Source: a virus. From it: a DNA stretch of 64,000 nucleotides. The notes under the pieces are model-generated. The model was not told the DNA's origin. It saw only the letters and a program-made list of their open reading frames with translations, and made no database searches. Each line of letters opens with the position of its first letter. The stretch's first letter is position 1. Shown one piece after another: positions 39,998-63,036 of this stretch. A program made the position numbers and the translations under genes. The stretch lies in IMG/VR virus record IMGVR_UViG_3300044614_002617, positions 1 to 64,000 of that record. One strand, given 5' to 3'.

Positions 39998-40239
39998 TCA
40001 GACTACTACTGTTACTACTATTGGTTGGTTGTGCAACTGCTCCAAAGCCAAAACAGCCAGACTTGTGTGCAACTGTTTATGACCCTCATCTTTGCCTTAT
40101 TACTATTGACAGCACGACATTTGCCGCCCATGGCAGTAATCGTTGTGTTGCTGTTAGAAAGTTAAAAAAAACACTCGAAGAAAGAAACCACAATCCACTA
40201 ATAGTAGAAAAAGCGGAATGCGGAAGAGTCCATGAATAA
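39994..40239 (+). CDS. Lipoprotein with Kazal-like motif (paralog of 20095..20355)
   Basis: Lipobox LVGC and 'CATVYDPHLC...TF...SNRC'. Confidence 0.6.
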   Translation: MIRLLLLLLLVGCATAPKPKQPDLCATVYDPHLCLITIDSTTFAAHGSNRCVAVRKLKKTLEERNHNPLIVEKAECGRVHE

Positions 40240-40417
40240 TCTTTTGCAATTACAGAAAATTTATGATTTGGCAGTTGAGCTGTTCGGCGATAAAAAAACA
40301 GCAAATGAGTGGTTAAATACGCCAAATCATTTATTTTTTGATAAAACGCCGCTTGAGTATGCTCATAGTGTAAACGCTCAGAGTGTTATTGATACGTTGT
40401 TGGAAATGATGTTGTAA
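40232..40417 (+). CDS. Orphan Xre/MbcA/ParS C-terminal (DUF2384-like) antitoxin domain
   Basis: 'AVELFGD...ANEWLNTPN..F..KTPLE' motif. No HTH and no RES toxin nearby. Confidence 0.7.
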   Translation: MNNLLQLQKIYDLAVELFGDKKTANEWLNTPNHLFFDKTPLEYAHSVNAQSVIDTLLEMML

Positions 40418-40501
40418 GTGAAAATGATTTTATGTCTTGTTTATGTTTGAATCTGTGTATCGCAAAGCGACGGTAAACAAATGGGAGCCGGAGGACAAGC
40501 C

Positions 40502-40840
40502 ATGAAAGCCGTTTCAAAGTTTAGTTACATGACTATAGACGGTATCGGTTACTTCGAGCCAGAAGAAGCAATGACCTACGACGAGGCGCTGCAATGGGCA
40601 AAGATACGCGGCCTACGTCTTCTGACTCGTGGTGAGTGGTGTGATTTATGGGACCATAAGGAAGAGTTTAGAAAGAGTTGCCGAAATGCTGTTTATTGGA
40701 CGGCTTCGGTGTGTGCTAATAATGGTCTATATGTGTGGTTCTTTAATGGATTCAATGGGGACCTAGAATCCACCGGTCGTTATGGTTCTTATGTAGTTCG
40801 TGCAGTGCAAGAAGACGCAGAGGCTAATTATGGCTATTGA
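40502..40840 (+). CDS. DUF1566/Lcl-C-like C-type-lectin-fold protein
   Basis: 'MTYDEALQWA...RLLT..E..L...YWTAS...VWFFNG.NG......YVVRAV'. Confidence 0.6.
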   Translation: MKAVSKFSYMTIDGIGYFEPEEAMTYDEALQWAKIRGLRLLTRGEWCDLWDHKEEFRKSCRNAVYWTASVCANNGLYVWFFNGFNGDLESTGRYGSYVVRAVQEDAEANYGY

Positions 40841-40931
40841 AGAACGCATTGAAGTCGCCTGCGACAATGCAGCTTGGTTTGTACACCAGTACCTCGTCCG
40901 ATATGGTTGTTAATTAGGGGGAGTATGGCAA

Positions 40932-41240
40932 ATGAGACGGTCGGAGATGATTGAGCACATTGCACAAGAACTGATTGATGTGGCTGTCGATGAAAGGTCA
41001 CGCAACACAGCGTACCATGGCTACTTCCAACGCAAAGCCGCAGACCTACTGGACATGATTGAGGGGTTTGGGATGCAGCCGCCGTCTGCAGTCTTCGTGA
41101 TAGATTGGGACAGATGGGACCCTGACAGAAAAGAATGGTATCCGAGCAAAGAAAGAATCCACTCGAACAAATGGGAAAACGAGTTATCCAAAGAATTAGG
41201 AGAACTGGTAGAGAAGGAGCCAGAAGATGAAACGAAGTGA
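40932..41240 (+). CDS. MKRS...GMxPP...WE family protein 1
   Basis: Paralogous to 41227 and 41836. GGGGGAG RBS. Confidence 0.65.
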   Translation: MRRSEMIEHIAQELIDVAVDERSRNTAYHGYFQRKAADLLDMIEGFGMQPPSAVFVIDWDRWDPDRKEWYPSKERIHSNKWENELSKELGELVEKEPEDETK

Positions 41241-41451
41241 GCTAGTTAACAAAATAAGTGAATACTTAAAAGAAGCTGGTTATAGTGCTGACATATCAGA
41301 CTACAATACAGTTCACCGGATTGTTTTTTTGGCTGAAATGGAAGGAATGCTTCCTCCAGCAATCAAAGTGCCCACAACCGGACAAGAAGATGGCGAAGTT
41401 TTTGAGCTAAACCTGCTAGTTAATGAGTGGGAGCCGGAGGAAAAACAATGA
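41227..41451 (+). CDS. MKRS...GMxPP...WEPE family protein 2
   Basis: Paralogous motifs. Overlaps both neighbours. Confidence 0.65.
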   Translation: MKRSELVNKISEYLKEAGYSADISDYNTVHRIVFLAEMEGMLPPAIKVPTTGQEDGEVFELNLLVNEWEPEEKQ

Positions 41452-41801
41452 ACAACCAACAAGCATTTAATAAGATGGTAAGACACCTGAGAAGACAGAA
41501 TAAACGTAGCTCTAACCAAGACGGCGGGATTTGTAGCTATCGTACTTACGATGGACTGAGGTGCGCGGTTGGTGCCCTGATTCCAAATCGCCTTTACGAT
41601 TCACATATTGAACATCAAACTATTGAATATGCAATGAAAACACATCCCCCTTTGGGTGAATATCTTGCAGGAGTCTCTCTTAACCTAATGAAGCACATGC
41701 AAGAAATACATGACGACGAGCCTGTGGGCAAATGGGAACAGTGCTTTGAGGAGGCTGCAAAAAAGTTCAACCTAACACTTCCGAAGAAAGCACAGAGCTA
41801 G
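41448..41801 (+). CDS. Conserved phage hypothetical protein
   Basis: 'QQAFNKMVRHL..Q...CSYR..DGLRCAVGALIP...QEIHD' pattern. ATG 41448 follows a GGAGG RBS. Confidence 0.6.
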   Translation: MNNQQAFNKMVRHLRRQNKRSSNQDGGICSYRTYDGLRCAVGALIPNRLYDSHIEHQTIEYAMKTHPPLGEYLAGVSLNLMKHMQEIHDDEPVGKWEQCFEEAAKKFNLTLPKKAQS

Positions 41802-41835
41802 CGGAAAGTGACAACAAACGAACGGGAGCCAGAAA

Positions 41836-42264
41836 ATGAAACGCAGTGGCCTACAGCAGATACTTAAAGACAGAATCGAAATGCGCATAAGAGAAGGTCA
41901 TTATGCGTCCGACAATACAGACTATGAAAGATGGGCGTTTGCACATTTTCTCGCGGATGAGCTAATCTCTTTGATTGAAGAGCAAGGAATGCAACCCCCA
42001 TCTGCCCCATTCCGGGTACGCAATAAACGCTGGAACCCAAAGAAAGAAGAATGGTACGAAATTGAAGAGTGGGCAATGTTAGACCAATGGGAGCCGGAGG
42101 GGGAAGCAACGCCGGATGGTTATGCTAATACTCTGCCAGATGGAGGCACTGCTGTAGGGCAGGGTGAGCCAAGTTTTACCTCTTTTAAAGACCTAACTGA
42201 AGAAGAGTGGGCGGTGCTAGACGAAAGTTTAAAACATGTAGGTCTTAGGACAAAAAATGAATAA
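41836..42264 (+). CDS. MKRS...GMxPP...WEPE family protein 3 (C-terminally extended)
   Basis: Paralogous motifs. The WEPE motif is internal, followed by about 50 extra aa. Confidence 0.65.
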   Translation: MKRSGLQQILKDRIEMRIREGHYASDNTDYERWAFAHFLADELISLIEEQGMQPPSAPFRVRNKRWNPKKEEWYEIEEWAMLDQWEPEGEATPDGYANTLPDGGTAVGQGEPSFTSFKDLTEEEWAVLDESLKHVGLRTKNE

Positions 42265-42532
42265 CAAAATCATTGATGAAATCCTTGATGAATTCGATTT
42301 TGAAAGAGTCCACAAGGTCATGAAGGCACTCAACTGGACTTGGCACGATACAGACGGCGTACCTACCATCGGCGACCTACGACGACAGGCAAGGACACTG
42401 CTGCAGGAACTGCTCAAGCACAACTACTACTGCACAGGTACGGGCGGGCTGTTTGCCTACAGAATAGCCGATACTGTGGGACTGCGATTTGAGGTCACTA
42501 GTTATGAAGTGGAAAAGGATTTGTCGGTATGA
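42257..42532 (+). CDS. Conserved phage hypothetical protein
   Basis: 'FDFERVHKVM..LNWTW....VP....L...AR..L.......TGGL' pattern. Confidence 0.6.
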   Translation: MNNKIIDEILDEFDFERVHKVMKALNWTWHDTDGVPTIGDLRRQARTLLQELLKHNYYCTGTGGLFAYRIADTVGLRFEVTSYEVEKDLSV

Positions 42533-42825
42533 AAGTCTACATCATCTGCTTCGACGGTGACCACATCTGTCATCCCACGGCATTTCTTGACCGAGAGAAG
42601 GCAGAGGAGCGTCTCAGAATTATGCAAGACGAGATGGATGCGGACGCAGATAAACATCAATGCAAGAGTTATTCGCAATGGTACTCGGTGGAGGAGTTAG
42701 AAATGGAACGCCCCATTAAGTTGAGCACCGAAGGTACTTTGAAGTTCCTTGAAATGCTAGACGGACAGGCTGAACCAAACGAAAACCTCAGAAAGGCTGC
42801 ATTGGAATCAGAAGACGCAACTTAA
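42529..42825 (+). CDS. Phage protein with DUF1778 (TacA/AtaR-type antitoxin)-like C-terminal tail
   Basis: C-terminal 'IKLSTEGTLKFLEMLDGQAEPNENLRKAA'. Confidence 0.5.
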   Translation: MKVYIICFDGDHICHPTAFLDREKAEERLRIMQDEMDADADKHQCKSYSQWYSVEELEMERPIKLSTEGTLKFLEMLDGQAEPNENLRKAALESEDAT

Positions 42826-42898
42826 ATTTCACATTTATGAAACTTAGATTACGCACTGACGAAATAATAGCTTTATTCTCTTTTAAAAAGAATAACTA

Positions 42899-42926
42899 TA
42901 AAGTTATATCAATCAGAATCCGATAA
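42899..42926 (+). promoter_or_regulatory. sigma28/FliA-type promoter TAAAGTT...TCCGATAA (N16)
   Basis: Intergenic, followed by a GGGGGG RBS and ATG 42948. Confidence 0.65.
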
Positions 42927-42947
42927 ATAAAACAAAGGGGGGTAGTT

Positions 42948-43127
42948 ATGTTTTACACTATTTCAGCAACGATTGATGACGAAGTTTACGTAGTTGCTAC
43001 AAATGTTCCAGATGACGAGCTTGAGGGCGAGCTACAGCATTTAACCCGCAGACATGCATTTAAGAATGTTGTAAGATTTGAAATAACACAAGAGATTGTT
43101 TTAGATCATTCCCCTATCCTAAAATAA
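42948..43127 (+). CDS. 59-aa hypothetical protein (below ORF-track cutoff)
   Basis: Read manually: MFYTISATIDDEVYVVATNVPDD...HSPILK. Strong RBS. Confidence 0.55.
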   Translation: MFYTISATIDDEVYVVATNVPDDELEGELQHLTRRHAFKNVVRFEITQEIVLDHSPILK

Positions 43128-43155
43128 CTAAAACTTAATTTTAACTTCCATCAAA

Positions 43156-43184
43156 TTGACAAATCTCTAGACATTGCCTATCCT
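43156..43184 (+). promoter_or_regulatory. sigma70-type promoter TTGACA-N17-TATCCT
   Basis: Upstream of an AAGGAG RBS and 43205. Confidence 0.6.
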
Positions 43185-43204
43185 TACTTTAAAGGAGAGG
43201 CGGT

Positions 43205-43507
43205 ATGTCTGATTTGCTTAATAATCTTGATTCGGTCGAACAAAACGCAGAAAAACAACAAGAATTCTTTAAAATGCTAGACGAAATGGTGTCTTCTTAT
43301 GGGCATCTTGTCCTGGAAGTTCAATCCATGGGGCAAAAAATTCAAGAATTAGCCGGACTTGCTCATTGGACAAAAGAACATACTGAGTATCTTTTAGCAA
43401 AAGATGAAGAGTATATGGCAGCCGTTAAAGCATTTATGGACTCAAAGGAGAGCAGCGATGGCAGCGAAGCCGACGCGGTTTCAGCAGACGTGTCCGAGAA
43501 AGCTTGA
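43205..43507 (+). CDS. Acidic coiled-coil hypothetical protein
   Basis: 100 aa with a strong RBS. Confidence 0.6.
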   Translation: MSDLLNNLDSVEQNAEKQQEFFKMLDEMVSSYGHLVLEVQSMGQKIQELAGLAHWTKEHTEYLLAKDEEYMAAVKAFMDSKESSDGSEADAVSADVSEKA

Positions 43508-44105
43508 AAAGCTTCCATCGACACACTGCCCACTAGCCGTAGAGTCTATCGAAGCAATCAAGGCGGGACAGCCAGACAAAGTCACCTGTCCTTTCTTTGT
43601 TAACGACATGCATTCTAATTATTGCTTTTGGAAATTTATGGATGAGGACGGCGAGGCTATTGACTCTGCCCGCAGGATTGCACAGCTTAATGTTATACAA
43701 GAAGCAGAAGTCAAAGAAATCATTTCAAATACCGCAAAAACTATTTTAACAACGGTAGATGTAGAAGATGTTCAGCTTTTTAAAGAATCAGTCTATGAGG
43801 CCATGCCAGAAGCGTCTTATGATATTTACACTCAAGAATCGTGGGTGGAAGAAGTTGTAGGAGCGGAAGGTCTGCCACAAGAGCCGGGCAAACCGGGACG
43901 TAAAAAGAAGGTTAAAATTCAAGCACCTAAGGGGTTTTCGGGTGGACATGCTCTGCATAAGTCGGGAAAGAGAACTCAGTTGACAGGACTGTCTTCTAAA
44001 TGGCACGAGCACGTTAAGGAGTTTCAAAAAGGCGATACACCTATCCGTATGTCTTCTAATACTATGACAAAAAAGAAGAAAGACGAAAAAGATGAAGACG
44101 CATGA
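43458..44105 (+). CDS. Cys-rich protein with possible sigma-region-4-like HTH
   Basis: 'CPRK...CP...CPFF...NYCFW' followed by 'RRIAQL...EAEVKEI..NT.K'. ATG 43458 follows an AAGGAG RBS. Confidence 0.45.
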   Translation: MAAKPTRFQQTCPRKLEKLPSTHCPLAVESIEAIKAGQPDKVTCPFFVNDMHSNYCFWKFMDEDGEAIDSARRIAQLNVIQEAEVKEIISNTAKTILTTVDVEDVQLFKESVYEAMPEASYDIYTQESWVEEVVGAEGLPQEPGKPGRKKKVKIQAPKGFSGGHALHKSGKRTQLTGLSSKWHEHVKEFQKGDTPIRMSSNTMTKKKKDEKDEDA

Positions 44106-44298
44106 AGCGATTGAAAAACTAAAGTCGAGTAACCCAAGCGATCGCGAAGATGGGGTATGGGTTCTCTATGTGAACTCATTACATTGTTATAAAACCTTAA
44201 AATATCACGCGGAGCGCGAAGCAGACTGGAAACTAAAAGACTTACTAAATAAAATGCTAAGCGATTTTAGGATTTTGCATGAAAAAGAAAACAGTTAA
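44092..44298 (+). CDS. Small helical (HEAT-like) protein
   Basis: 'LKSSNPSDREDGVWVL' resembles one HEAT repeat. Confidence 0.45.
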   Translation: MKTHEAIEKLKSSNPSDREDGVWVLYVNSLHCYKTLKYHAEREADWKLKDLLNKMLSDFRILHEKENS

Positions 44299-45415
44299 AA
44301 ATATTAAACCAGTTTTAAAAACAATACAACATCTCAAGTTTATTAAGCAACTTGAGAAAAACGGCAATTTAGCTTACCAAATAGTCGCTGACAGGATGAT
44401 TGATGATATTGTAAGTTATCTTAAGTCAGAAAAGCTCGCTAAAGCCGAAGACTCTCACAATATTCCAAAAAATTGGACAAAGCTAGTTCCTCGTATTCAA
44501 ATCAATGTAAACAATACACTTGGTCCAATTATTGAAAAATATATGCTTGCTCTTAAGTATGCGCTATTGGGTAAGGCCGCCGGGCAAGATGCCGAAAATG
44601 CCGTTGAAGAGCTAGGACTAAAAACATATTTACCAAAAGGGCTGCTGTTTCAAGGTTTTTTTGACGCGGTGGACACTCAGTCCGATTACTTTTCCAAGGC
44701 TCTAAAGTTACCTAAAATCAAGACAGATGCATCTAAAGATCCTTTTATCGAGTATACTTTTAGGTTCATCAAAGAAAAGACGGCAAGACATCTCGATAAA
44801 ACGCTTGTCGAAATGAAGACCAAAGCCTTAACCGCAATTGAACAGGTTATCACAGAACACAACCATGAAAATACCTCAAATGTTCATCGGGTTGCCAACC
44901 AACTTGCATCTGAGCTAACAGAAACGAAGAAAAAACGCGAAGCCGTTCATGATGCTGTCAAAGCGGTTGCTGAGCATAAGCTCAGTTTGACCAAAGCAAA
45001 GCAGACCCTTAAAGATACTTTTAAAGACTATTCAACAAACTGGGACTTGGTTGTTAGAACCGAGGTAGGCATGGCATCGGCCACAGCAACAAGCCAAGCA
45101 ATCATGAATTTAGCCGGCTCTAAAGACAAGGATGTAATTGTTACTATCGTTTCGATTGAAGACGATAGGGTGTCTGAAGAGTGTAAGAATTGGTCAAGAA
45201 ACGACGACGGCTCTCTGAAATACTTTAGGCTTACATCTTTAAGGCCAGCAGGCTATAATTTGGGAAAAAAGAAAGCACAATGGGAAAACTGTCAACCACT
45301 GCGCCATTTTAGATGTCGTTGTACTTTGGTATACGTTCCAAGGGGTTACAAAGTGGATAGCTTTGGTTCGTTGGTAAAATTAGCCGAGGGCGAAGAAATT
45401 AAACTAGAGCGTTAA
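44279..45415 (+). CDS. Head morphogenesis protein (SPP1 gp7/MuF-like)
   Basis: 'NWDLVVRTE' ... 'DDRVS..C' ... 'PLRHFRCRCTL' motifs. Confidence 0.75.
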   Translation: MKKKTVKNIKPVLKTIQHLKFIKQLEKNGNLAYQIVADRMIDDIVSYLKSEKLAKAEDSHNIPKNWTKLVPRIQINVNNTLGPIIEKYMLALKYALLGKAAGQDAENAVEELGLKTYLPKGLLFQGFFDAVDTQSDYFSKALKLPKIKTDASKDPFIEYTFRFIKEKTARHLDKTLVEMKTKALTAIEQVITEHNHENTSNVHRVANQLASELTETKKKREAVHDAVKAVAEHKLSLTKAKQTLKDTFKDYSTNWDLVVRTEVGMASATATSQAIMNLAGSKDKDVIVTIVSIEDDRVSEECKNWSRNDDGSLKYFRLTSLRPAGYNLGKKKAQWENCQPLRHFRCRCTLVYVPRGYKVDSFGSLVKLAEGEEIKLER

Positions 45416-45417
45416 TT

Positions 45418-45681
45418 TTACGCATCCTCTTCTCTGCTTTTAATAATATGAATTTTTTCTTGTTTTAGATATGTACTAAACACCTTAACGAGATGTTTTT
45501 CTACAGCGACTTTCCAGCTTTCGCTGAGAGGGGAAAGATTTGCTGTATTTCCAGATTGGGCATTATATGCAATTGCATGAGCCATTTTAATAAGATCTTG
45601 CGCATAAATAACTAAATGATAGTCACCTGTTCTGCCGTCTGCAATCAAATCGTCAATCTCTTCCTTTGAGTATATTTTCAT
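45418..45681 (-). CDS. Hypothetical protein
   Basis: Last gene of a tightly packed minus-strand operon. Confidence 0.5.
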   Translation of the reverse strand: MKIYSKEEIDDLIADGRTGDYHLVIYAQDLIKMAHAIAYNAQSGNTANLSPLSESWKVAVEKHLVKVFSTYLKQEKIHIIKSREEDA

Positions 45682-45998
45682 TCCGCGCCCTTTCTGGATA
45701 GACTACTATTAATACTATTTTTTGCCGTTTTCCATTTGTCTGCAGAAATCCTTATTTGCCTTTCTGCTAAACCAACTATCTCCCACTGATTGTCTAAAGA
45801 CATTAAGGTGGTACGACCAAATTTAACAATTTCATCGCTTTCTGTCAATATATAAATAGTCATCTTGTTGAGCATAATAATTACCCCACAACAAGAGTCT
45901 GCTTCTTGATTTGTAAACTCAACGGTATCGCCCAGCTCAGCTTCCATTAGCTGTAGCTCATCGTAAGCCCATGGCGTTGTAACTGTTTCTGCACTCAT
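45678..45998 (-). CDS. Hypothetical protein (SH3/KOW-like beta domain)
   Basis: GGAG RBS. 'ELGDTVEF...GVII' pattern. Confidence 0.55.
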   Translation of the reverse strand: MSAETVTTPWAYDELQLMEAELGDTVEFTNQEADSCCGVIIMLNKMTIYILTESDEIVKFGRTTLMSLDNQWEIVGLAERQIRISADKWKTAKNSINSSLSRKGAE

Positions 45999-46009
45999 AG
46001 TCTACTCCA

Positions 46010-46285
46010 TTAGGGTGCTGGTATAAGTTTCCAAAAAGGGTTGTCGCTGGAATAAGAGTAAATTAAAATTTTTTTATAATACCAACCATCCGGACGATGA
46101 ATTTTTAATCCATCAATATATTCATCTGTATACCCCTCCAGCTGGTTGCAGTCTCTCAGGACTTGCAAAATCTCTTCTTTTGAAGGCATTGAAGACATCA
46201 TCACAACAGAATGATAATCGTCTTGGTTTGTGTTCCAGTACGAAACAATATACAGCTTATATCTATGCGGAAGAGAAAAGCTCAT
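46010..46285 (-). CDS. Hypothetical protein
   Basis: 91-aa ORF in the operon. Confidence 0.5.
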   Translation of the reverse strand: MSFSLPHRYKLYIVSYWNTNQDDYHSVVMMSSMPSKEEILQVLRDCNQLEGYTDEYIDGLKIHRPDGWYYKKILIYSYSSDNPFWKLIPAP

Positions 46286-46296
46286 TGTCTACCCTA

Positions 46297-47223
46297 TTAA
46301 AAAATATTAAGCCTTTCTAAGGCGCTGATAAATTTAAACGCAGACATTTTTGAAACACATTCAGCCACTTCCATTTTTCTTGGGCAATTTGAAAAATCCC
46401 AAAAGTTTAAATTCCAATCTGATTCGCAAAAATTACAAATTATATTCGGAACAACCGGAATCGTTTGGGCTATGCCTCTATACGGAATGCGCAATTCAGG
46501 CTTAATTGTAGTAAAACCGCATACCACTGGAGTTTGGGTTGTCCATGCAATGTGAATAGGGCCGCCATCCATACCAACAACGGCTCTAGACTTGCTCATA
46601 ATAGCAGCAAGCTCTCTAAATGATGTTTTATCTCTTAAGTCTACTCCAAATCCCGGATACTCAAAGTCGCTCATTGCCAAATTGTTTTTCCATATACTGA
46701 TAGATCCTGTTTTTCCTACATAAACAGGAATCAGCCCTTTTGCATAAACGTATTCCGCTATTTTTTTAATTTCGGTTGGCAGAATAGTTCTTTGCTTATC
46801 TCTGTATGTAGTTATGATTACAACCGCTTTACTGAAATCTACGCCGTACTTACTAACATCCACTGGCTTTAGGGGCACATATTGCAATTCAGCGTCGCTG
46901 AGTATTTTTGCCATTAAGCCAATACAAGCGTAGTGAGTTAACTTAAGCCTCGAAGGAGTCAGCTTACATAGATTGCCGCCCGGAGCAGGAATATTTAGAT
47001 AGCGAACTGAATAATCTTTGTCGTAACTTCCGCTGATTTCTGTAAATTTTTCTTCTGGAACAAAAGGAAACAAATCTTTAAAATCTGGATAGATTCCAAC
47101 TTTATAGTCGGTTTGCTGATGATACGTTTCGATTGCATGCTTAAGAATAGGAGCAGCGGCAATCAAGTCACCTACGGCGGCGCTATTAAGGCAATAAATT
47201 GTTTTATTCGCAAACATAATCAA
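46297..47223 (-). CDS. Glycosyltransferase family 9 (heptosyltransferase-like, GT-B)
   Basis: 'AVGDLIAAAP', 'DLRDKTSFRELAAIM' and 'VVGMDGGPIHIA...PVVCGF'. Confidence 0.75.
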   Translation of the reverse strand: MIMFANKTIYCLNSAAVGDLIAAAPILKHAIETYHQQTDYKVGIYPDFKDLFPFVPEEKFTEISGSYDKDYSVRYLNIPAPGGNLCKLTPSRLKLTHYACIGLMAKILSDAELQYVPLKPVDVSKYGVDFSKAVVIITTYRDKQRTILPTEIKKIAEYVYAKGLIPVYVGKTGSISIWKNNLAMSDFEYPGFGVDLRDKTSFRELAAIMSKSRAVVGMDGGPIHIAWTTQTPVVCGFTTIKPELRIPYRGIAQTIPVVPNIICNFCESDWNLNFWDFSNCPRKMEVAECVSKMSAFKFISALERLNIF

Positions 47224-48671: not shown

Positions 48672-48754
48672 AAGTTCTCCGTTTTGTTTGTATTACCAAA
48701 CACAAACATATGAGTCAATGATAAAATATAACAAGTATTTCATAGGGGTTTCAG

Positions 48755-49537: not shown

Positions 49538-49546
49538 GAGGATGAT

Positions 49547-49924: not shown

Positions 49925-49930
49925 ATAATT

Positions 49931-49956
49931 AAGGGGAGCTATGCTCCCCTTTTTTT
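49931..49956 (+). terminator. Rho-independent terminator AAGGGGAGC-TAT-GCTCCCCTT-T-tract
   Basis: Perfect 9-bp stem followed by a T-tract, between convergent genes. Confidence 0.8.
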
Positions 49957-50854: not shown

Positions 50855-50875
50855 AACTTACCCCCCATATCCTTC

Positions 50876-50902: not shown

Positions 50903-50918
50903 GCCGTTATTGTAAAAT
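50890..50918 (+). promoter_or_regulatory. sigma70-type promoter TTGAAA-N17-TAAAAT
   Basis: Upstream of the fibre gene at 50960. Overlaps the divergent sigma28-type site. Confidence 0.55.
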
Positions 50919-55867: not shown

Positions 55868-55878
55868 CGGAGTAAAAC

Positions 55879-56331: not shown

Positions 56332-56333
56332 GT

Positions 56334-56798
56334 ATGGCAAAAGTACCATTAATACAAAGCAGTTATCCAGTTTTCCCTGAACGACCATCATTTTTTATAG
56401 GTTGGCCTGGGGCAATGTCCTTAACTGGAACCGCTGCTCTTCCTCCTACGGGAGGAACGGTAAAATTTAATAATGGCTCTCATTTTAATACGTCAACAAT
56501 GCGATTTACTTGCCCTGTTGCTGGGCTGTATTTAATAGGTGCAAGCTATTTGCGACAAAATGCAAACAATGTTGTAGTTCGCATGAATGCTTTTAAAAAT
56601 GGAACTAATGAAAACCAACAATTGCGTTCTACTGAAGCATATACTGGTTTTAATTATACAGCTGGACAATGGTGGTTATTAAGAGCAAACATCGGAGATA
56701 TTTTAGATGTTAGGATTTCTGCAGATTCAGCAACAACTTTATATGCAGATGGTGGTAATGGTGAATATAATTGGATTTGTGGATATTTAGTGGGGTAA
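56334..56798 (+). CDS. Stand-alone C1q-like domain protein
   Basis: 'RPSF...RFTCPVAGLY...CGYLVG'. ATG 56334 preferred. Confidence 0.65.
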   Translation: MAKVPLIQSSYPVFPERPSFFIGWPGAMSLTGTAALPPTGGTVKFNNGSHFNTSTMRFTCPVAGLYLIGASYLRQNANNVVVRMNAFKNGTNENQQLRSTEAYTGFNYTAGQWWLLRANIGDILDVRISADSATTLYADGGNGEYNWICGYLVG

Positions 56799-56801
56799 TA
56801 T

Positions 56802-57509
56802 ATGTCATCGTCAGTAATTAAACAACAATCTTCGGGTATTGCGACAGAAACGCAAAGTGGACTAGTTAGCACTGATACACAATCGTTCGGTGGCGACAAA
56901 ACGTTTGCGGGCACTAAAGTAGTGGTAAATGGCAATGTTGGAGTGGGCACTGCAACGCCGGGCGCTAAAATGCAACTTTCCGCAGGAGATGCTTCGTATG
57001 CTTGGTACGGCCCAAATACAACATGGGGTGGATTTCTTATAGTTGGTGCATGTCCGAATCAAGTTACTACACTTAAAGCACAAATCATTTCAACCGATGG
57101 CAATATGCATTTAGACTCAGCAACATCAAAAAGTGCTTATATAAATTATTACTCACAAGGCAATACATATATTAATGGGCAAGCCGGAAATGTTGGAATA
57201 GGAACATTAACGCCTAGTTATAAGTTACATGTGAACGGTTCTGGATTTTTTAGTTCAAGCGTTTTTTGTAATAAAGGTGGATTTTCAAGCGGAGATGGAA
57301 ACTATCTTAACGGATTAGACGGATTCTACGGTTCAAGTTACGATGGTTATTATCTTATGAATCGACCAGGATTTAGCAGTGCATTTTGGCAACATGACCA
57401 TGGTGGTTCTACTGGAACTATTCAATGGGCAACTTCGTACGGTCAAGCTTTATATAGAAGAAATCGAACTGATAATAATACTTGGACAGCATGGAGGCAG
57501 GTTGACTAA
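56802..57509 (+). CDS. Short fibre protein
   Basis: N-terminal 'ATETQSGLVST.TQSFGGDKTF', two 'GNVG.GT.TP..KL' repeats and a C-terminal 'WTAWRQ'. Confidence 0.65.
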   Translation: MSSSVIKQQSSGIATETQSGLVSTDTQSFGGDKTFAGTKVVVNGNVGVGTATPGAKMQLSAGDASYAWYGPNTTWGGFLIVGACPNQVTTLKAQIISTDGNMHLDSATSKSAYINYYSQGNTYINGQAGNVGIGTLTPSYKLHVNGSGFFSSSVFCNKGGFSSGDGNYLNGLDGFYGSSYDGYYLMNRPGFSSAFWQHDHGGSTGTIQWATSYGQALYRRNRTDNNTWTAWRQVD

Positions 57510-57856
57510 TGATCTTATATTTAAACATTAAAGAAAACAGAATAGAAGCCATCTTAAAACGTCCAGACCCTAACAACCCCTTTAAACCATATTGTAAGGA
57601 GTTAGAACTTCCTGATGATTTTAATATTCAAGTTGAATATTTAAATGCTGAGGGGGAATCTCGCCTTAGGGAAATGACGGTCGAAGAGTTAGAAACTGCG
57701 TTGAGCTACAGAGAACGAAGATATAATAATTATCCAAAACTTGCAGAACAGATGGATATGCTTTGGCATGCTATGGACAAAGGGGAATTACCCAAGGTTG
57801 AATCTTTTTACAATGCTATTAAACAAGTTAAAGAACAATTTCCTAAAGATAACTAA
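57509..57856 (+). CDS. Tail fibre assembly chaperone-like protein
   Basis: 'YRERR...YP...EQMDMLWH...IKQVKEQFPK' motif, following a fibre gene. Confidence 0.6.
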   Translation: MILYLNIKENRIEAILKRPDPNNPFKPYCKELELPDDFNIQVEYLNAEGESRLREMTVEELETALSYRERRYNNYPKLAEQMDMLWHAMDKGELPKVESFYNAIKQVKEQFPKDN

Positions 57857-57881
57857 TTTTGGACTATTTGTGGAGTAAGAA

Positions 57882-58826
57882 ATGTCATCCTCGGTAATAT
57901 CTCAACAATCCTTAGGGCTAGCGACCGAGACTCAGAGCGGATTGGTTGGTACTGGGACACAATCGTTCAGTGGGGATAAGACGTTTGCCGGCGCGTATAC
58001 TGTTAGGGCAATTCAGCAGGTGGGCGTGCCAAATATAGGAACGCACGCAGGATATCTTATACTTGCAAAAGCGTATGTAAGCGGATTGCAAGAAGTTTCT
58101 GAAATTACAGGAACATTTTTGTTAAGCAGAGGTGGCACCGGAACCGGCAACAGAGGAGACACTTATACAGTTGTATCAAGATCGGCATACAATGGAGAGG
58201 GCTTAACTGTTCAGGTTTCAGTTGCGGGTAATCGTTTTTTTGTGAGAACAGTCAAGGTTACTTACCAAGGAACGATATACCATGCAATAGAAACTACTGT
58301 AACTGGGGGCGAACCAAATAATGGCATTTCATTCCAAGGTGTTATCAAAAATGCAACCCCGATTTATGTAGATGCTACATATGTTTCAAGTATTTCTGCC
58401 TTTGGAAACTTTACGATTTTAGAAAACGGAATACTTCAAAAACCTCAAACTCCGTCTTTTAGTGGTTCGTTTTCTACATATACATCGAATACGTCAAATT
58501 ATAACCCCAACCTAGCGACTTCTTTTAATGTTGGATTTGCTGTAAATGCTGGGCAATCTAGGATTACGGTTCCAGTTGCAGGAAAATATTTTGTTCAGGC
58601 TCAGCAGCTTGTAAATACCGTTGGAACAAGTGTTTATTTACATATAAGGAAAAATTCAAACACAGTAAGATATGCGTATAGCAATAATGACGATACATAC
58701 GACATGAACGTGTCTGCTATGGTAGATTGTGCAGCAAACGATTATATTGATTTTTATTATTCTGGAACGACAACATATTCGTGGGCAGACCCTCACTCCG
58801 GTGTTATTTGCTATTTAATAGGATAA
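57882..58826 (+). CDS. Short fibre protein with C1q-like head
   Basis: Same N-terminus as 56802. 'TPSF...RITVPVAGKY...CYLIG'. Confidence 0.65.
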   Translation: MSSSVISQQSLGLATETQSGLVGTGTQSFSGDKTFAGAYTVRAIQQVGVPNIGTHAGYLILAKAYVSGLQEVSEITGTFLLSRGGTGTGNRGDTYTVVSRSAYNGEGLTVQVSVAGNRFFVRTVKVTYQGTIYHAIETTVTGGEPNNGISFQGVIKNATPIYVDATYVSSISAFGNFTILENGILQKPQTPSFSGSFSTYTSNTSNYNPNLATSFNVGFAVNAGQSRITVPVAGKYFVQAQQLVNTVGTSVYLHIRKNSNTVRYAYSNNDDTYDMNVSAMVDCAANDYIDFYYSGTTTYSWADPHSGVICYLIG

Positions 58827-58839
58827 AAAGGAGAATAAT

Positions 58840-59094
58840 ATGCAGGACATAACAATAAGTCTCACGGAAACCGAGTTCAAAGCGTTGAATGTGGCAGCTC
58901 TTTCGCCTCAAGAGTGGGCTAAAAACGCCGTCAAGAGCCGTGCCCAAATCGCGATCGATGAAATTGTTCAATTGTGTGTCGCAAAAAGTCTTGAAGAACA
59001 GGTACAGATTCCTAGTTCCAAAGAAGAAATTGTAGACTTGGCAATCGCTAAGGGATGGGTTAAGATAGCTTCATCGGAGGTGTCAAATGGCTGA
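58840..59094 (+). CDS. Small fibre-associated protein
   Basis: 'ITISLTETE.KAL...PQEW..NA...RA..AIDEI' pattern. AGGAG RBS. Confidence 0.55.
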   Translation: MQDITISLTETEFKALNVAALSPQEWAKNAVKSRAQIAIDEIVQLCVAKSLEEQVQIPSSKEEIVDLAIAKGWVKIASSEVSNG

Positions 59095-59482
59095 TTTAAG
59101 TACAATTGCTACGGCTGGTAGAGATTTTCAAGATGGTGGATTTAAAATCAATTATGGCGTATATAGCCCTACCGTAACTACCGTTTCTGGAATTGCAAAC
59201 GCAAATTTTGGCAACTCCTTTAGAGATATGAGAACTGGGAACAGAACCATTAATGTTCATAATCTCAAAGATGGACAATCTTTAACAATTTTGGTTCAGG
59301 GCGCACTGAACAATGTTATTACAATAGCTGTGTTTAGCGATGCGGGAGTCACTTCCGTTCCCGTAAAATACGGAGCAGGACAAAGCGGCACCATGGCATC
59401 CGCCTACTCGCTTTTTACCGTTTATCGTGTTGGGGGGGATTTAAATTTTGCAGTGATTGGGCCAATTCACGGGATATCGTAA
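59087..59482 (+). CDS. Small beta-rich virion protein
   Basis: GGAGG RBS. Located in the fibre cluster. Confidence 0.55.
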   Translation: MADLSTIATAGRDFQDGGFKINYGVYSPTVTTVSGIANANFGNSFRDMRTGNRTINVHNLKDGQSLTILVQGALNNVITIAVFSDAGVTSVPVKYGAGQSGTMASAYSLFTVYRVGGDLNFAVIGPIHGIS

Positions 59483-59483
59483 T

Positions 59484-60878
59484 ATGTTTTTTAATAATGC
59501 CGTTGGTGTGCTAGCAACACAAAAAGCAACTGAAACAGAAGAAAAAATTACATCTTCTATAACAAAAACAATGACATCCGCATACGTACCTCAAAGTATT
59601 AAAGTTTGGGGCACTGGCGGGGGAGCCGGTGGAGCCAATGGAGCAAATGGGGCAAATGGTAATACCGGCGGCTCAGGAGTAAACGGAGGTACCGGTATAG
59701 CTGGATCCGGAGACAGCGGAGGTCGTGGCTGGTCGAGCGGCGGATACGGTTACGGTGGAGCCGGCGGAGCTGGCGGAGCCGCTGGCAACGGAGGAGCAGG
59801 CGGAGCCGGTGGAGCAGGCGGAGCAGGCGGTGGAAAAGGATCCGGAAATTTAAATAATTACATTTCTGAAAATTACAATACATATGATTTTTTTTCTGAT
59901 TTTATTGGCGGGGTTGATATCGCAATTGTTGTTGGAAACGGAGGGAACGCTCAAACAAACGGAAGTTCATCTGGCCTAAGTGTTAATGGGGTTCAAAAAA
60001 TTATGTATTCAGGTGGGCTCATAAACCAATCACCTGGAACGCCGGGAGCAAACGGAACAAACGGTACGGCTGGCAGCGGCGGAGCCGGTGGAGCCGGGGG
60101 TGCGCTCGTCGGAGGATCTGGAGTAAATGGCGGAGGCGCAGGAGGAGGAAGTGGCGGAGCTGGTGGCAGCGGACGAGGAGCCGGTGGAACCGGGGGCGCC
60201 GGTGGGATTGGTGGAAGCAAGAACATTGGTTTCGTCTTAAATGGTATAGAATACGGAACCGGGGGCGCCGGTGGTAACGGGGGCGCCGGTGGTAACGGTG
60301 GAATTGGTGGACTTGGTGGAAATGGCGGAAATGGCGGAAATGGTTATGGAGGGGGAGGCGGAGGACAGTCTGTTTATCAAACAGACTTTTGGTACTCTTA
60401 CGCTGGAAACTCCGGAGGTTGGGGCTGGGGCGGCGGCGGCGGTAGCGGGGCGGCTGATATCTTCGCAGCTTTACCTGGAGGAAACGGAGGCTCTTCGGTA
60501 AATGGATACAGTGGAGGAGCCGGAGGTGTGCTTCCGCCTAGTAGTTATGGAGGGGGAAGCGGAGGCGGCGGCGGTGCCGGCTCCGGCGGAAATGGCGGTG
60601 GCGGTGGCGTTGGGTATTATTCAGGAGATGTGTACTATCCGGGCGGCGGAGGCGGCGGTGGCTGGGGCGGCGGAGGAAATGGCGGACGAGGGCAAGGATA
60701 TTTGGGGCCATACTCCGGGGGCTCAGAAAGCGGCTATGGCGGAAGCGGTGGAGGATACGGAGGAGCAGGCGGAGCCGGGGGTGCTTCTGGTGGGGCAGGA
60801 ACATCCGGAACTGCCGGTCAAGCTGGACAAGCTGGCAAAAATGGCATAATAATTATTAGATATAAAGTGTTTGAGTAG
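59484..60878 (+). CDS. Glycine-rich (GGxGGx) adhesin-like protein
   Basis: Extensive GGAGGAGG/GGNGG runs interspersed with aromatic loops. C-terminal 'GIIIIRY'. Confidence 0.7.
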   Translation: MFFNNAVGVLATQKATETEEKITSSITKTMTSAYVPQSIKVWGTGGGAGGANGANGANGNTGGSGVNGGTGIAGSGDSGGRGWSSGGYGYGGAGGAGGAAGNGGAGGAGGAGGAGGGKGSGNLNNYISENYNTYDFFSDFIGGVDIAIVVGNGGNAQTNGSSSGLSVNGVQKIMYSGGLINQSPGTPGANGTNGTAGSGGAGGAGGALVGGSGVNGGGAGGGSGGAGGSGRGAGGTGGAGGIGGSKNIGFVLNGIEYGTGGAGGNGGAGGNGGIGGLGGNGGNGGNGYGGGGGGQSVYQTDFWYSYAGNSGGWGWGGGGGSGAADIFAALPGGNGGSSVNGYSGGAGGVLPPSSYGGGSGGGGGAGSGGNGGGGGVGYYSGDVYYPGGGGGGGWGGGGNGGRGQGYLGPYSGGSESGYGGSGGGYGGAGGAGGASGGAGTSGTAGQAGQAGKNGIIIIRYKVFE

Positions 60879-60896
60879 AAACTAGAATACAAAAAT

Positions 60897-60925
60897 TTGA
60901 CTTTAAAAAAACTGTTTTGTAAAAT
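60897..60925 (+). promoter_or_regulatory. sigma70-type promoter TTGACT-N17-TAAAAT
   Basis: Intergenic, followed by a GGAGG RBS and 60944. Confidence 0.6.
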
Positions 60926-60943
60926 TTTTTTGGAGGTTCTTAT

Positions 60944-61678
60944 ATGTCAGATATTATTGTAAGAAATGCTGGCACAGCCGTTTCTACTATTCTAGAAACA
61001 ATTAAGCCAATGTCGGTCATCAAAAAAGAAGATCAGCAGTTTCTTGTTGAGCATAAAGAGCATTTTGCTCAGGTATTTGAAAAAACGCACATCTGGAGAA
61101 CAGACACACAAAAGCTTTCAATTGTTTCGGATAGCTATCACCCAACTCTACACTCTAAGTTTCATCAAGCAATTCTAGAACAAAAAGTTCAATTAGACCA
61201 GACTTTCTATTTGGCAAAAGATTTTGAAATGAAAAAAATTGAAATTGAAGAACTAATGCTAGATCTAGAGGATCTGGGCGATACCGCTAGGGACGAACTT
61301 AAAAGACGTAAATTTGAAATTGAACTTCAGTTTAAAAAGTATGAACTAGATCAAATGGTTATTTCCATGAATTATAGAATGGCGGAAGTAAAAGGTTGGC
61401 AAAAAATTCAAGAAGATCTTTTAATTAAACTGCGAGAATCGGGAATGGACGAGGAAACAATTTGGAGCAAAGACGCTGGAGAGGTGGAGTCAATGTTCTT
61501 TGGTACACTTACTCGCTTGCAGGGTCTGGCCAAAACAACGGACGGTGCCGAAGCAAATAACCTAATAGCTTTGGCTCAGTTTTACGTACAAAAAGTTCAA
61601 GAAAGTGGAAGACTTCCGGAATTAAAAAAGAAATGCAATAAGGCTCAACTGGACTCTCTTAAATTTTTAGGATATTAA
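60944..61678 (+). CDS. Coiled-coil hypothetical protein
   Basis: 244 aa, 'WRT...PT..SKF.QA..EQ' pattern. Confidence 0.6.
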   Translation: MSDIIVRNAGTAVSTILETIKPMSVIKKEDQQFLVEHKEHFAQVFEKTHIWRTDTQKLSIVSDSYHPTLHSKFHQAILEQKVQLDQTFYLAKDFEMKKIEIEELMLDLEDLGDTARDELKRRKFEIELQFKKYELDQMVISMNYRMAEVKGWQKIQEDLLIKLRESGMDEETIWSKDAGEVESMFFGTLTRLQGLAKTTDGAEANNLIALAQFYVQKVQESGRLPELKKKCNKAQLDSLKFLGY

Positions 61679-61681
61679 TAT

Positions 61682-61708
61682 TAAAGTTCTTGCAACAAAA
61701 GACGATAA
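61682..61708 (+). promoter_or_regulatory. sigma28/FliA-type promoter TAAA-N15-GACGATAA
   Basis: Canonical spacing, followed by GGGAGGTTCTCATG (ATG 61736). Confidence 0.75.
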
Positions 61709-61735
61709 GATTTATGGTAAGCATGGGAGGTTCTC

Positions 61736-61804
61736 ATGCTTATTAGCTTTTTTTTAATTATTTTGATGGCTTACGTATTCGCCAGAACAGGGAGAACTTT
61801 ATGA
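61736..61804 (+). CDS. 22-aa hydrophobic peptide
   Basis: Read manually. Strong RBS and ATGA overlap with 61801. Confidence 0.4.
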   Translation: MLISFFLIILMAYVFARTGRTL

Positions 61805-61989
61805 AAATGATTTATACACTAATGGATTACGAAAACGGTAAACTAAACGCAGAAGAAACAATTAAATTGTTTCAGAATTTGATTGACAGTGGGCTTATTT
61901 TTGGTCTGCAGGGTCATTATTTGGAAGTAGCTAGAGATTTGGTAGAAGCTGGCTTGGTTAATCTCACAACTGCTGACATTGAGGAGTGA
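61801..61989 (+). CDS. Conserved small phage protein
   Basis: 'YENG.L...E.I.LFQ.LIDSG....LQGHY...A..L..AG' pattern. Confidence 0.6.
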   Translation: MKMIYTLMDYENGKLNAEETIKLFQNLIDSGLIFGLQGHYLEVARDLVEAGLVNLTTADIEE

Positions 61990-61991
61990 TT

Positions 61992-62144
61992 ATGGTAATG
62001 GAAATGTTTGTTAATAGAATTTTAAATATCTTGCTAAATAAAAATACACTTATTCATACAACAAAAGAAATAGCAGAAGCTCAAAACATGGCTCGCCGAG
62101 CAATTGCTACCTATGAGGCGGTTGTTACAGGGAATATCTTATGA
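61992..62144 (+). CDS. 50-aa hypothetical protein
   Basis: Read manually. GAGGAG RBS and ATGA overlap with the next ORF. Confidence 0.45.
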   Translation: MVMEMFVNRILNILLNKNTLIHTTKEIAEAQNMARRAIATYEAVVTGNIL

Positions 62145-62305
62145 CCAATAAGCATGATGACGAAGAGGGTCGTCCACCAGAAACATTAAATGAAGCTCTG
62201 ATGTTTCTGGCCTACCACACAGGAATGTTTGCTTTAAAAGTGGCAGCTATTATTGCTGTCTGGGTTATGTTAGTAGACCTTTTAAGAAGCCTTATGATGC
62301 CCTAG
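62141..62305 (+). CDS. 54-aa membrane protein
   Basis: Read manually. C-terminal hydrophobic helix. Confidence 0.45.
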   Translation: MTNKHDDEEGRPPETLNEALMFLAYHTGMFALKVAAIIAVWVMLVDLLRSLMMP

Positions 62306-62314
62306 GGAGTTTTT

Positions 62315-62653
62315 ATGCTTAACATTATTATTATAGCTGGTATTGTTTTAGGTGGCATGTCTCTTTCCGCTGCAAAAAGAAAGCCATTGCCTGTAGGCAG
62401 CTGCATTGCCGATAAGTTACTCTGTAATGCAAACGACCCTAATCTTGATCCATGGCAAGTCGAGTGTTACAACGGCGCATTGCTGAGAATCGAGGCGGTC
62501 GGAAAGCATTCTTACAAAACGGGTTGCGTTGAAGAAACTTTTCATTGTAAAGGATTTGTTTCTTTTAGAGACGCAAGAGATTTTTTCTTTCCGATTGAAT
62601 GTCCACCCAAGGTGATGCGTCTTCGTAATTCCGTTCCGCTTCCAAAGGAGTAA
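62315..62653 (+). CDS. Exported Cys-rich protein, related to the 23456 lipoprotein
   Basis: Signal/TM N-terminus and 'VGSCI...RIEAVG..SY...ECP'. Confidence 0.55.
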   Translation: MLNIIIIAGIVLGGMSLSAAKRKPLPVGSCIADKLLCNANDPNLDPWQVECYNGALLRIEAVGKHSYKTGCVEETFHCKGFVSFRDARDFFFPIECPPKVMRLRNSVPLPKE

Positions 62654-62656
62654 GCA

Positions 62657-62842
62657 ATGCCACAAACACTGATCTTGCTGACTTGTGTAATGGTGTTACT
62701 AGCTTGTTTACTTTATGTTGCCGACATGGCAAATAATTTTGTTGACACAGCGACTCAAATTTATTGCGAGCAACGAGCTGATTTTAGTAAATGCTCTCAA
62801 GAATTTAAAGAAAAAATGTCAACTCTGATGAAAAGGCACTAA
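62657..62842 (+). CDS. Small membrane-anchored protein
   Basis: N-terminal TM helix. AAGGAG RBS. Confidence 0.5.
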   Translation: MPQTLILLTCVMVLLACLLYVADMANNFVDTATQIYCEQRADFSKCSQEFKEKMSTLMKRH

Positions 62843-62856
62843 TTCTACGGTTTTTT

Positions 62857-63036
62857 ATGTCTCTAAATATTAAAAAGCTCAGAGAGCAAATAATTCTAAC
62901 AAAAGAAGGCGATGACTATGTCGCCACTCACCCTTCTCATCCTACACTTTCTGTTTGTGCACCGACAATTTTTGAAGCAGAGCAAGAAATCTTACAATAT
63001 GTTATGTATATGATTTTACTAGAAAATATAAAATAA
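62857..63036 (+). CDS. 59-aa HicB-like antitoxin N-terminal domain (below ORF-track cutoff)
   Basis: Read manually. 'IILTKEGDDYVATHPSHPTLSVCAPTIFEAEQEI' matches the HicB beta-beta-P..P-beta-T..EA pattern. The RBS is weak. Confidence 0.5.
   Translation: MSLNIKKLREQIILTKEGDDYVATHPSHPTLSVCAPTIFEAEQEILQYVMYMILLENIK

What the first reader, a model, noticed from the sequence alone, without database searches (positions are those of the whole stretch)
40232..63036. Set of three unrelated orphan antitoxin-like toxin-binding domains, all lacking DNA-binding parts and toxins
Seen in sequence: 40232..40417 is an Xre/MbcA/ParS-C-like domain only. 42529..42825 ends in a DUF1778-like tail. 62857..63036 is a HicB-N-like domain only. 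No RES, GNAT-toxin or HicA partner is adjacent, and all three lie downstream of sigma28-type promoters (38311 or 61682). Established: these antitoxin families neutralise RES NAD-consuming toxins, GNAT tRNA-acetylating toxins and HicA RNases respectively, and TA modules can act in phage defence. Inference: the phage carries a minimal antitoxin-mimic arsenal expressed early to disarm several host TA classes.
Basis: partly seen in the sequence, partly recalled or inferred. Interest (0 to 1): 0.8.

Follow-up and report, generated by a model that had tools for sequence, protein, structure and literature searches.

The report
Toxin-less antitoxin pieces in a phage
A large uncultured phage carries two small genes built from the toxin-gripping parts of bacterial antitoxins (one against RES toxins, one against GNAT toxins) and a third with only a loose HicB-like shape. 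It carries none of the matching toxins, so these genes are probably antidotes against host suicide toxins, an idea already published for other antitoxin families and untested here.

Summary
Observation partly confirmed. All three ORFs are real genes under purifying selection (dN/dS 0.03-0.33).

- **40232-40417:** a clear stand-alone Xre/MbcA/ParS C-terminal toxin-binding domain (Pfam 36.5 bits, cut-off 24.5). It is conserved in two complete relatives (163 and 169 kb). Its closest cellular relatives, in Pseudobdellovibrionaceae, Oligoflexia and lake "proteobacterium" MAGs, are full-length antitoxins, each followed directly by a RES toxin gene.
- **42529-42825:** an unrelated 56-residue head plus a tail matching the neutralising C-terminal region of DUF1778/TacA antitoxins. 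The Pfam score is borderline (20.7 bits, cut-off 21). The tail is 46-49% identical to the tail of genuine TacA antitoxins in two of those MAGs. Only 17 of 59 family members keep the whole tail.
- **62857-63036:** HicB-N/UPF0150-like by predicted fold only (Z 8.1 to 2DSY). It has no sequence-profile match, and the fold is very common among small phage proteins.

No RES or HicA gene is in this record or in the complete relatives. A weak GNAT domain 44 kb away is unrelated to GNAT toxins.

The "arsenal" reading is plausible for the first two genes and weak for the third. "Early expression" is unsupported. The three genes are not a co-inherited set.

The kind is known (AdfN; SMV1 gp44). This scan has noted the same thing before on other phage DNA.

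The parts
40232..40417 (+). 61-aa stand-alone Xre/MbcA/ParS C-terminal (DUF2384) toxin-binding domain, with no HTH half
   Evidence: Pfam PF09722 36.5 bits; NCBIfam NF049845 positions 49-105 of 112. Aligns to the C-terminal part of Xre antitoxin structures 6GW6_B and 8GUG_B. 42-48% identical to the C-domains of cellular antitoxins that precede RES genes, and ends at the same position as they do. dN/dS 0.06-0.33.
42529..42696 (+). Head of the 98-aa protein (residues 1-56): conserved small domain of unknown function, not a ribbon-helix-helix
   Evidence: Family of 59 proteins shares this head. Predicted beta-beta-alpha-beta at low confidence. Only sub-threshold DUF7336 matches. dN/dS 0.03.
42697..42825 (+). 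DUF1778/TacA-like toxin-neutralising tail (residues 57-92) plus an acidic end
   Evidence: PF08681 profile positions 41-76 of 80. 15 of 18 homologues match. Weak profile hits to AtaR chains, including the 46-residue DUF1778 chain 6GTQ_C. 46-49% identity to TacA tails of L031 and L032. Tail dN/dS 0.07. Low pLDDT, as expected of a segment that folds on binding.
62857..63036 (+). 59-aa protein with a HicB-N/UPF0150-like (dsRBD-like) predicted fold
   Evidence: pLDDT 91.5. 2DSY Z 8.1; HicB N-domains Z 5.0-6.3. ESM Atlas HicB-named clusters at 0.88, a lead only. No sequence-family match. Family of 9 proteins. dN/dS 0.10-0.23.
38311..38337 (+). Sigma28-like motif TAAAGTT-N15-CGATA, between the portal gene stop and the first small gene of the block that holds the first two ORFs
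   Evidence: Sequence read. The motif class has 10 sites against 1.26 expected, all pointing at same-strand genes.
61682..61707 (+). Sigma28-like motif TAAAGTT-N14-CGATA, upstream of the small-gene block that ends with the third ORF
   Evidence: A 14-pair hairpin plus T-run follows at 61715-61745.
40418..42947 (+). Variable small-gene island that holds the 98-aa gene; replaced by other genes in relatives
   Evidence: Synteny portal-g31..g35-DUF2384 gene-[island]-g44..g47 holds in L007 and L008 with different island content. In G001 the 98-aa gene's relatives lie in another island.

Best explanation
The phage has captured toxin-binding modules of cellular type II antitoxins and expresses them without the DNA-binding half and without a toxin. 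The 61-aa protein is the complete C-terminal domain of an Xre-type antitoxin. It most likely binds a RES-family (NAD+-consuming or ADP-ribosylating) toxin of the host and blocks its active site, standing in for the host antitoxin when that is degraded or no longer made during infection. The 98-aa protein carries, on an unrelated head, the disordered C-terminal peptide with which DUF1778 antitoxins (AtaR, TacA) wrap and silence GNAT toxins that acetylate aminoacyl-tRNA; it would do the same to a host GNAT toxin. The 59-aa protein has the shape of the HicA-binding half of HicB and may bind a HicA-type RNase, but that is much less certain. Shown here: domain identity, absence of toxins, purifying selection, and kinship to real antitoxins. 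Inferred: binding of a host toxin, the benefit to the phage, and the timing of expression.
For: Domain identity. Orphan status: no RES, HicA or TacA-partnered GNAT in the 110-kb record or in complete relatives G001 and G002, including a search with a profile of the divergent RES toxins. Nearest cellular relatives of the 61-aa protein are 132-144-aa antitoxins, each followed directly by a RES gene (PF08808 31.6, 23.2 and 21.9 bits; the fourth one scanned, L027, has no Pfam match). They share 42-47% identity and the same C-terminal end. ParS and MbcA block their toxins with that C-terminus (PMC7758455). Two of the same MAGs hold TacA-GNAT pairs whose antitoxin tail is 46-49% identical to the phage tail. 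AtaR neutralises through exactly this disordered region (PMC7758455). All three ORFs are under purifying selection. The DUF2384 gene is kept in all three phage genomes. Stand-alone 58-95-aa forms are 12 of 32 hits in an exhaustive search. Precedent: the orphan DarG-like AdfN in T4-like phages (PMC11825919) and a viral Phd homologue that neutralises host Doc (PMC11065993).
Against: No binding or rescue data exist. The host is unknown: there is no DNA or spacer match to the candidate MAGs. In G001 the DUF2384 domain is fused to a 75-residue C-terminal extension, which would bury a C-terminal plug. Only 17 of 59 head-family members keep the full tail, 12 have a 7-residue deletion inside it, and both complete relatives lack it. 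The tail's Pfam score is just under the cut-off. The third protein has no sequence link to any HicB and no relative in the candidate MAGs, and many unrelated small phage proteins share its fold.
Confidence: 0.5

Rival explanations
1. The modules have been put to another use. They bind a non-toxin partner (a phage or host protein, or RNA in the case of the dsRBD-like 59-aa protein), and their antitoxin ancestry no longer says what they do.
For: The 59-aa fold also matches dsRBD, RF1 and ribosome-hibernation domains at Z 5-6.6 and dozens of uncharacterised phage proteins. The DUF1778 tail is dispensable in most family members, whereas the head is the conserved part. The DUF2384 domain tolerates a C-terminal fusion in G001.
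Against: The 61-aa protein keeps 42-48% identity to working antitoxin domains over its whole length, with the same end point. The tail keeps the conserved DUF1778 neutralising motif under purifying selection (dN/dS 0.07).
Confidence: 0.27
2. Self-immunity: the small proteins neutralise the phage's own toxin-like enzyme domains, for example the GNAT domain at the start of the 886-aa protein at genome 86412-89072, until these are packaged or delivered.
For: A weak GNAT match exists in this phage and in G001: 19.8-21.1 bits, with the G001 copy just over the 20.7-bit cut-off. The same protein has a PI3/PI4-kinase-like domain. An earlier scan note reads it as a multi-enzyme polyprotein.
Against: G001 keeps the GNAT domain but lacks any DUF1778 tail. 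The phage GNAT shows no similarity to a TacT-type toxin (E 1.3). No RES-like domain is in any of the three phage genomes. The genes are 44 kb apart.
Confidence: 0.08
3. The targets are toxins of rivals rather than of the host's own TA modules: RES or GNAT toxins brought by co-infecting phages, plasmids or contact-dependent polymorphic toxin systems.
For: RES domains also occur in polymorphic toxin systems and in Caudovirales (PMC3482391). The tail's patchy distribution fits a variable threat.
Against: Nothing is specific to this reading. The closest relatives found are chromosomal two-gene TA pairs.
Confidence: 0.1

Closest known systems
Xre/MbcA/ParS antitoxins of RES-Xre type II TA modules (P. 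putida Xre-RES 6GW6; MbcA-MbcT; ParS-ParT)
   Same: The 61-aa protein is the C-terminal toxin-binding domain (PF09722) and ends where the closest cellular antitoxins end.
   Different: It has no HTH half and no RES gene beside it or anywhere in the phage. It belongs to a divergent 'PNHLFF' subgroup whose cellular members sit in Bdellovibrionota-like MAGs.
DUF1778 antitoxins AtaR/TacA of GNAT-RHH TA modules (6AJM, 6GTQ)
   Same: Residues 57-92 match the disordered C-terminal region that wraps and inhibits the GNAT toxin.
   Different: The ribbon-helix-helix DNA-binding head is replaced by an unrelated conserved phage head. No GNAT toxin partner is present. The tail is present in only a minority of head-family members.
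HicB N-terminal domain / UPF0150 (TTHA0281 2DSY; HicB 6G1C, 6HPB)
   Same: Three strands plus a helix, with rmsd 1.4-2.1 A over 52-59 residues.
   Different: No sequence-profile match, no fourth strand, no RHH or HTH tail, and no HicA. The fold is shared with dsRBD-like domains.
Proven viral orphan antitoxins: AdfN NADAR of T4-like phages against DarTG1 (PMC11825919); SMV1 gp44 Phd homologue against host Doc (PMC11065993)
   Same: A virus-borne homologue of a cellular antitoxin with no toxin gene, proposed to replace the host antitoxin during infection.
   Different: The antitoxin families differ. Here only the toxin-binding piece is kept, and nothing has been tested.

Membership tests
Xre/MbcA/ParS antitoxin (RES-Xre TA) | C-terminal toxin-binding domain PF09722 | tested here: met
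   36.5 bits against a cut-off of 24.5; 42-48% identity to cellular members.
Xre/MbcA/ParS antitoxin (RES-Xre TA) | N-terminal HTH DNA-binding domain | tested here: not met
   The protein is 61 aa. NCBIfam positions 1-48 are unmatched, whereas cellular relatives carry about 75 extra N-terminal residues.
Xre/MbcA/ParS antitoxin (RES-Xre TA) | Adjacent RES toxin gene | tested here: not met
   Neighbours have no toxin family. PF08808 and a profile of the divergent RES toxins find nothing in G000, G001 or G002.
Xre/MbcA/ParS antitoxin (RES-Xre TA) | Neutralises a RES toxin | not testable with these tools
   Needs co-expression or complex modelling.
DUF1778 / TacA / AtaR antitoxin | C-terminal toxin-neutralising region | tested here: met
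   20.7 bits against 21, which is borderline. 15 of 18 homologues match, best E 7.7e-6. 46-49% identity to genuine TacA tails.
DUF1778 / TacA / AtaR antitoxin | N-terminal ribbon-helix-helix | tested here: not met
   Profile positions 1-40 are unmatched. The head is predicted beta-beta-alpha-beta at low confidence.
DUF1778 / TacA / AtaR antitoxin | Adjacent GNAT toxin | tested here: not met
   The only GNAT-like stretch is 44 kb away and unrelated to a TacT-type toxin.
HicB antitoxin | N-terminal HicA-binding fold | tested here: inconclusive
   Z 8.1 to UPF0150 2DSY and Z 5.0-6.3 to HicB chains, but unrelated dsRBD and RF1 domains score Z 5-6.6.
HicB antitoxin | Sequence-profile match to a HicB/UPF0150 family | tested here: not met
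   No Pfam, NCBIfam or PHROG match at E up to 10. The ESM Atlas score of 0.88 is a lead only.
HicB antitoxin | HicA partner and C-terminal DNA-binding domain | tested here: not met
   The protein is 59 aa. PF07927 is absent from G000, G001 and G002.
Viral orphan-antitoxin counter-defence | Viral homologue of a cellular antitoxin with no toxin in the virus | tested here: met
   Met for the first two genes.
Viral orphan-antitoxin counter-defence | Protects the virus from a host TA system | not testable with these tools
   The host is unknown and uncultured.

The most novel reading that the evidence does not exclude
The 98-aa family is a display scaffold: a conserved phage head that acquires, trims and loses short toxin-binding peptides captured from host antitoxins. 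The phage lineage would then retune which host toxins it disarms by mosaic recombination in the tail, with the head supplying stability or multimerisation in place of the lost DNA-binding domain. The 61-aa DUF2384 gene would be the fixed, core member of the same strategy in phages of Bdellovibrionota-like bacteria.
Probability: 0.15. Interest if true: 0.7.

Novelty: new member of a known kind. Interest (0 to 1): 0.45.

Why it matters
Toxin-antitoxin modules are a major class of anti-phage defence. The proven phage antidotes are few and come mostly from other families (Dmd, pseudo-ToxI, AdfA/AdfN, the DarG-like macrodomain, an archaeal Phd homologue). My literature searches found no phage-borne inhibitor of RES NADase/ART toxins or of GNAT tRNA-acetylating toxins.

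This locus supplies concrete pairs that can be tested: the phage 61-aa protein against the RES toxins of L026 or L028, and the phage tail against the GNAT toxin of L031. It also shows the minimal piece that evolution kept, which helps define the neutralising core of these antitoxins.

It gives a weak host clue as well (Bdellovibrionota/Oligoflexia-like lake bacteria) for a clade of about 165-kb phages distantly related to Myxococcus phage Mx1.

Tried and rejected
- **DNA search against cultured phages:** megablast found nothing. tblastn of the 61-aa protein against 50,697 phage records also found nothing.
- **Word-index homologue search for the 61-aa protein:** it found only itself. The exhaustive search was needed.
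- **The search for related loci:** The first genome scan found nothing.
- **PDB sequence search of the 886-aa protein:** nothing.
- **Model of the 98-aa protein:** too uncertain (pLDDT 58) for a fold search.
- **Alternative tails in the head family:** no antitoxin family matched, so "many different antitoxin tails" is not supported.
- **Host link:** no spacer or DNA link between the phage and the candidate MAGs. The 59-aa family has no relative there.
- **Tree of the DUF2384 domains:** too short to resolve who gave what to whom.
- **Strict E. coli sigma28 consensus:** no exact match. Only the relaxed motif is enriched.
Full report
**Source.** The window is bases 1-64000 of a 110,367-bp IMG/VR virus record judged 67% complete. 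It has no near DNA match among cultured phages. Its portal protein is closest, at 24% identity, to Myxococcus phage Mx1. Two complete relatives were found: G001 (162,747 bp, with terminal repeats) and G002 (169,059 bp).

**ORF 40232-40417 (61 aa).**
- Pfam PF09722 (Xre_MbcA_ParS_C) scores 36.5 bits against a cut-off of 24.5.
- NCBIfam NF049845 matches only positions 49-105 of 112, so the HTH half is missing.
- It aligns to the C-terminal part of the Xre antitoxin structures 6GW6_B and 8GUG_B.
- The domain occurs in G001 and G002 as well. The gene sits at the same place after the portal block in G001 and L007, and elsewhere in G002. dN/dS is 0.06-0.33.
- An exhaustive HMMER search gave 32 hits. 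Twelve of them are 58-95-aa stand-alone forms.
- One cluster of 62-aa "DUF2384 family" proteins lies on contigs of exactly the same lengths as contigs that carry relatives of the 98-aa gene. I infer that these belong to the same phage clade.
- A scan of one genome per prokaryote species found five cellular relatives, in Pseudobdellovibrionaceae, Oligoflexia and lake "proteobacterium" MAGs. Each is a 132-144-aa protein with an extra N-terminal HTH-like part, followed directly by a 250-264-aa gene (177 aa in L029).
- I scanned four of these downstream genes and three match RES: PF08808 at 31.6, 23.2 and 21.9 bits (cut-off 23.2). The fourth, L027, has no Pfam match.
- The phage protein is 42-47% identical to four of those C-domains (28% to L030). 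It ends at the same position...LLEMML against ...LQEMTA.
- This matters because ParS and MbcA block their toxins with the C-terminus (PMC7758455).
- PF08808 and a profile built from these divergent RES proteins find nothing in G000, G001 or G002.
- One caveat: in G001 and L007 the domain runs on into a 75-residue extension with no known family.

**ORF 42529-42825 (98 aa).**
- Residues 57-92 match positions 41-76 of the 80-position TacA1/DUF1778 profile, at 20.7 bits against a cut-off of 21.
- The family has 59 members. Of 18 tail-bearing members, 15 match PF08681, best E 7.7e-6.
- A family profile weakly hits AtaR chains, including the 46-residue DUF1778 chain 6GTQ_C.
- The MAGs that carry the RES pairs also carry TacA1 (88.5 bits) plus GNAT toxin pairs. 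The tails of those antitoxins are 46-49% identical to the phage tail over 39 residues.
- AtaR neutralises AtaT through exactly this disordered C-terminal region (PMC7758455). The phage tail is modelled with low confidence, as such segments are.
- The head (residues 1-56) is not a ribbon-helix-helix. It is the conserved part of the family.
- Only 17 members keep the full tail. Twelve have a 7-residue deletion inside it, and 30 lack it. Many members end instead in a ...TLEEVYDL motif.
- G001 and G002 have no DUF1778 match at all.
- The tail is nevertheless under purifying selection against L010 (dN/dS 0.07).
- The gene lies in a variable island (40418-42947) whose content differs in relatives.

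**ORF 62857-63036 (59 aa).**
- It has no sequence-family match and belongs to a small family of nine proteins.
- The model is confident (pLDDT 91.5): a short helix, three strands and a long helix.
- The best PDB match is TTHA0281 (2DSY, a UPF0150/HicB-like protein) at Z 8.1 and rmsd 1.9 A over all 59 residues.
- HicB N-domains score Z 5.0-6.3, but RF1 and dsRBD domains score Z 5-6.6.
- Dozens of uncharacterised small phage proteins share the fold.
- The ESM Atlas points to HicB-named clusters at 0.88, below the level that tool calls reliable.
- HicA is absent from the three phage genomes. The candidate MAGs have HicA but no relative of this protein.

**Toxins elsewhere in the phage.**
- The only candidate is a weak GNAT stretch (19.8-21.1 bits) at the start of an 886-aa protein at genome 86412-89072, and in its G001 homologue.
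- It shows no similarity to a TacT-type toxin.
- G001 keeps it while lacking any DUF1778 tail, which argues against a self-immunity pair.

**Promoters.**
- The relaxed motif TAAAG-NN-N13-16-CGATA occurs 10 times against 1.26 expected, always pointing at same-strand genes. The sites include 38311, 42899 and 61682.
- The strict E. coli sigma28 consensus has no exact match.
- No strong terminator lies between 38311 and 42825.
- Activity, the sigma factor used and the timing are all untested, so "early" is unsupported.

**Literature.**
- Orphan antitoxins as phage counter-defence are proven for DarG-like enzymes (PMC11825919; PMC13309987) and for a viral Phd homologue (PMC11065993).
- Free-standing antitoxin genes in large aquatic phages have been noted and interpreted the same way (PMC12619734).
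- A defence role for HicAB is itself only proposed (PMC11594946).
- I found no paper on phage DUF2384-only or DUF1778-tail proteins.
- This scan's own notes report the same kind of gene on other phages. I treat those as unchecked leads.

**Verdict.** Two genuine antitoxin-derived toxin-binding modules and one look-alike, all without toxins. They are most likely counter-defence antidotes, and so a new member of a known kind. They are not shown to be a coordinated or early-expressed set.

Noticed in passing
window 21073, 23779, 34782, 38311, 42899, 61682 (+) and 63602 (-); genome 91512, 98217, 102945 (-): A sigma28-like motif (TAAAG-NN-N13-16-CGATA) occurs 10 times against 1.26 expected. Every site points at a same-strand gene start 6-186 bases away. 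It may be a phage or host alternative-sigma promoter class.
   Followed up: partly
window 61715-61745: A 14-pair hairpin followed by eight T begins about 8 bases after the -10-like element of the 61682 motif. It could stop read-through from the upstream operon, while transcripts that start inside the stem escape it.
   Followed up: no
window 40418-42947; L008:3962-4405: The small-gene island after the DUF2384 gene differs between relatives. Genes are joined by a repeated junction that encodes W-E-P-E. In G001 and L007 the DUF2384 ORF reads through a similar junction (KEWSEEP) into a 75-residue extension with no known family.
   Followed up: partly
L026-L030 (cellular MAGs): A divergent RES-Xre subgroup occurs in Pseudobdellovibrionaceae, Oligoflexia and lake MAGs. 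The antitoxins carry a 'PNHLFF' motif, and the RES toxins barely reach the Pfam cut-off (31.6, 23.2 and 21.9 bits; one is undetected). This hints that the phage clade infects Bdellovibrionota-like bacteria, but no DNA or spacer link was found.
   Followed up: partly
genome 86412-89734 (L004:2413-5735): An 886-aa protein has a weak N-terminal GNAT match and a PI3/PI4-kinase-like domain (27-28 bits). It is followed by a NUDIX protein (62.9 bits). Another note's ART-like domain got no Pfam support.
   Followed up: partly
L012:3055-4017 (G001): A deoxyhypusine synthase homologue (PF01916, 138.8 bits) sits between the relatives of 62657-62842 and 62857-63036 in G001, overlapping the start of the latter. 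A comparable gap lies at the same place in L013 and L014 but was not read. The gene is absent from this window.
   Followed up: no
window 20095-20355 and 39994-40239: Two paralogous small lipoproteins (55% identity, lipobox LVGC). One lies directly upstream of, and overlaps, the DUF2384 gene.
   Followed up: no
window 39383-39997 and 46297-47223 (-): A DUF5672 protein (79.4 bits) and a family-9 glycosyltransferase (heptosyltransferase-like, 36.6 bits). These suggest a Gram-negative host and modification of its surface sugars.
   Followed up: no
L011:3564-4216; L010:4288-4464; L008:5250-5435: The head of the 98-aa protein occurs as tandem or nearby paralogues in relatives, without a DUF1778 tail. 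This points to a larger family of small 'MKVY...' head proteins in this phage clade.
   Followed up: partly
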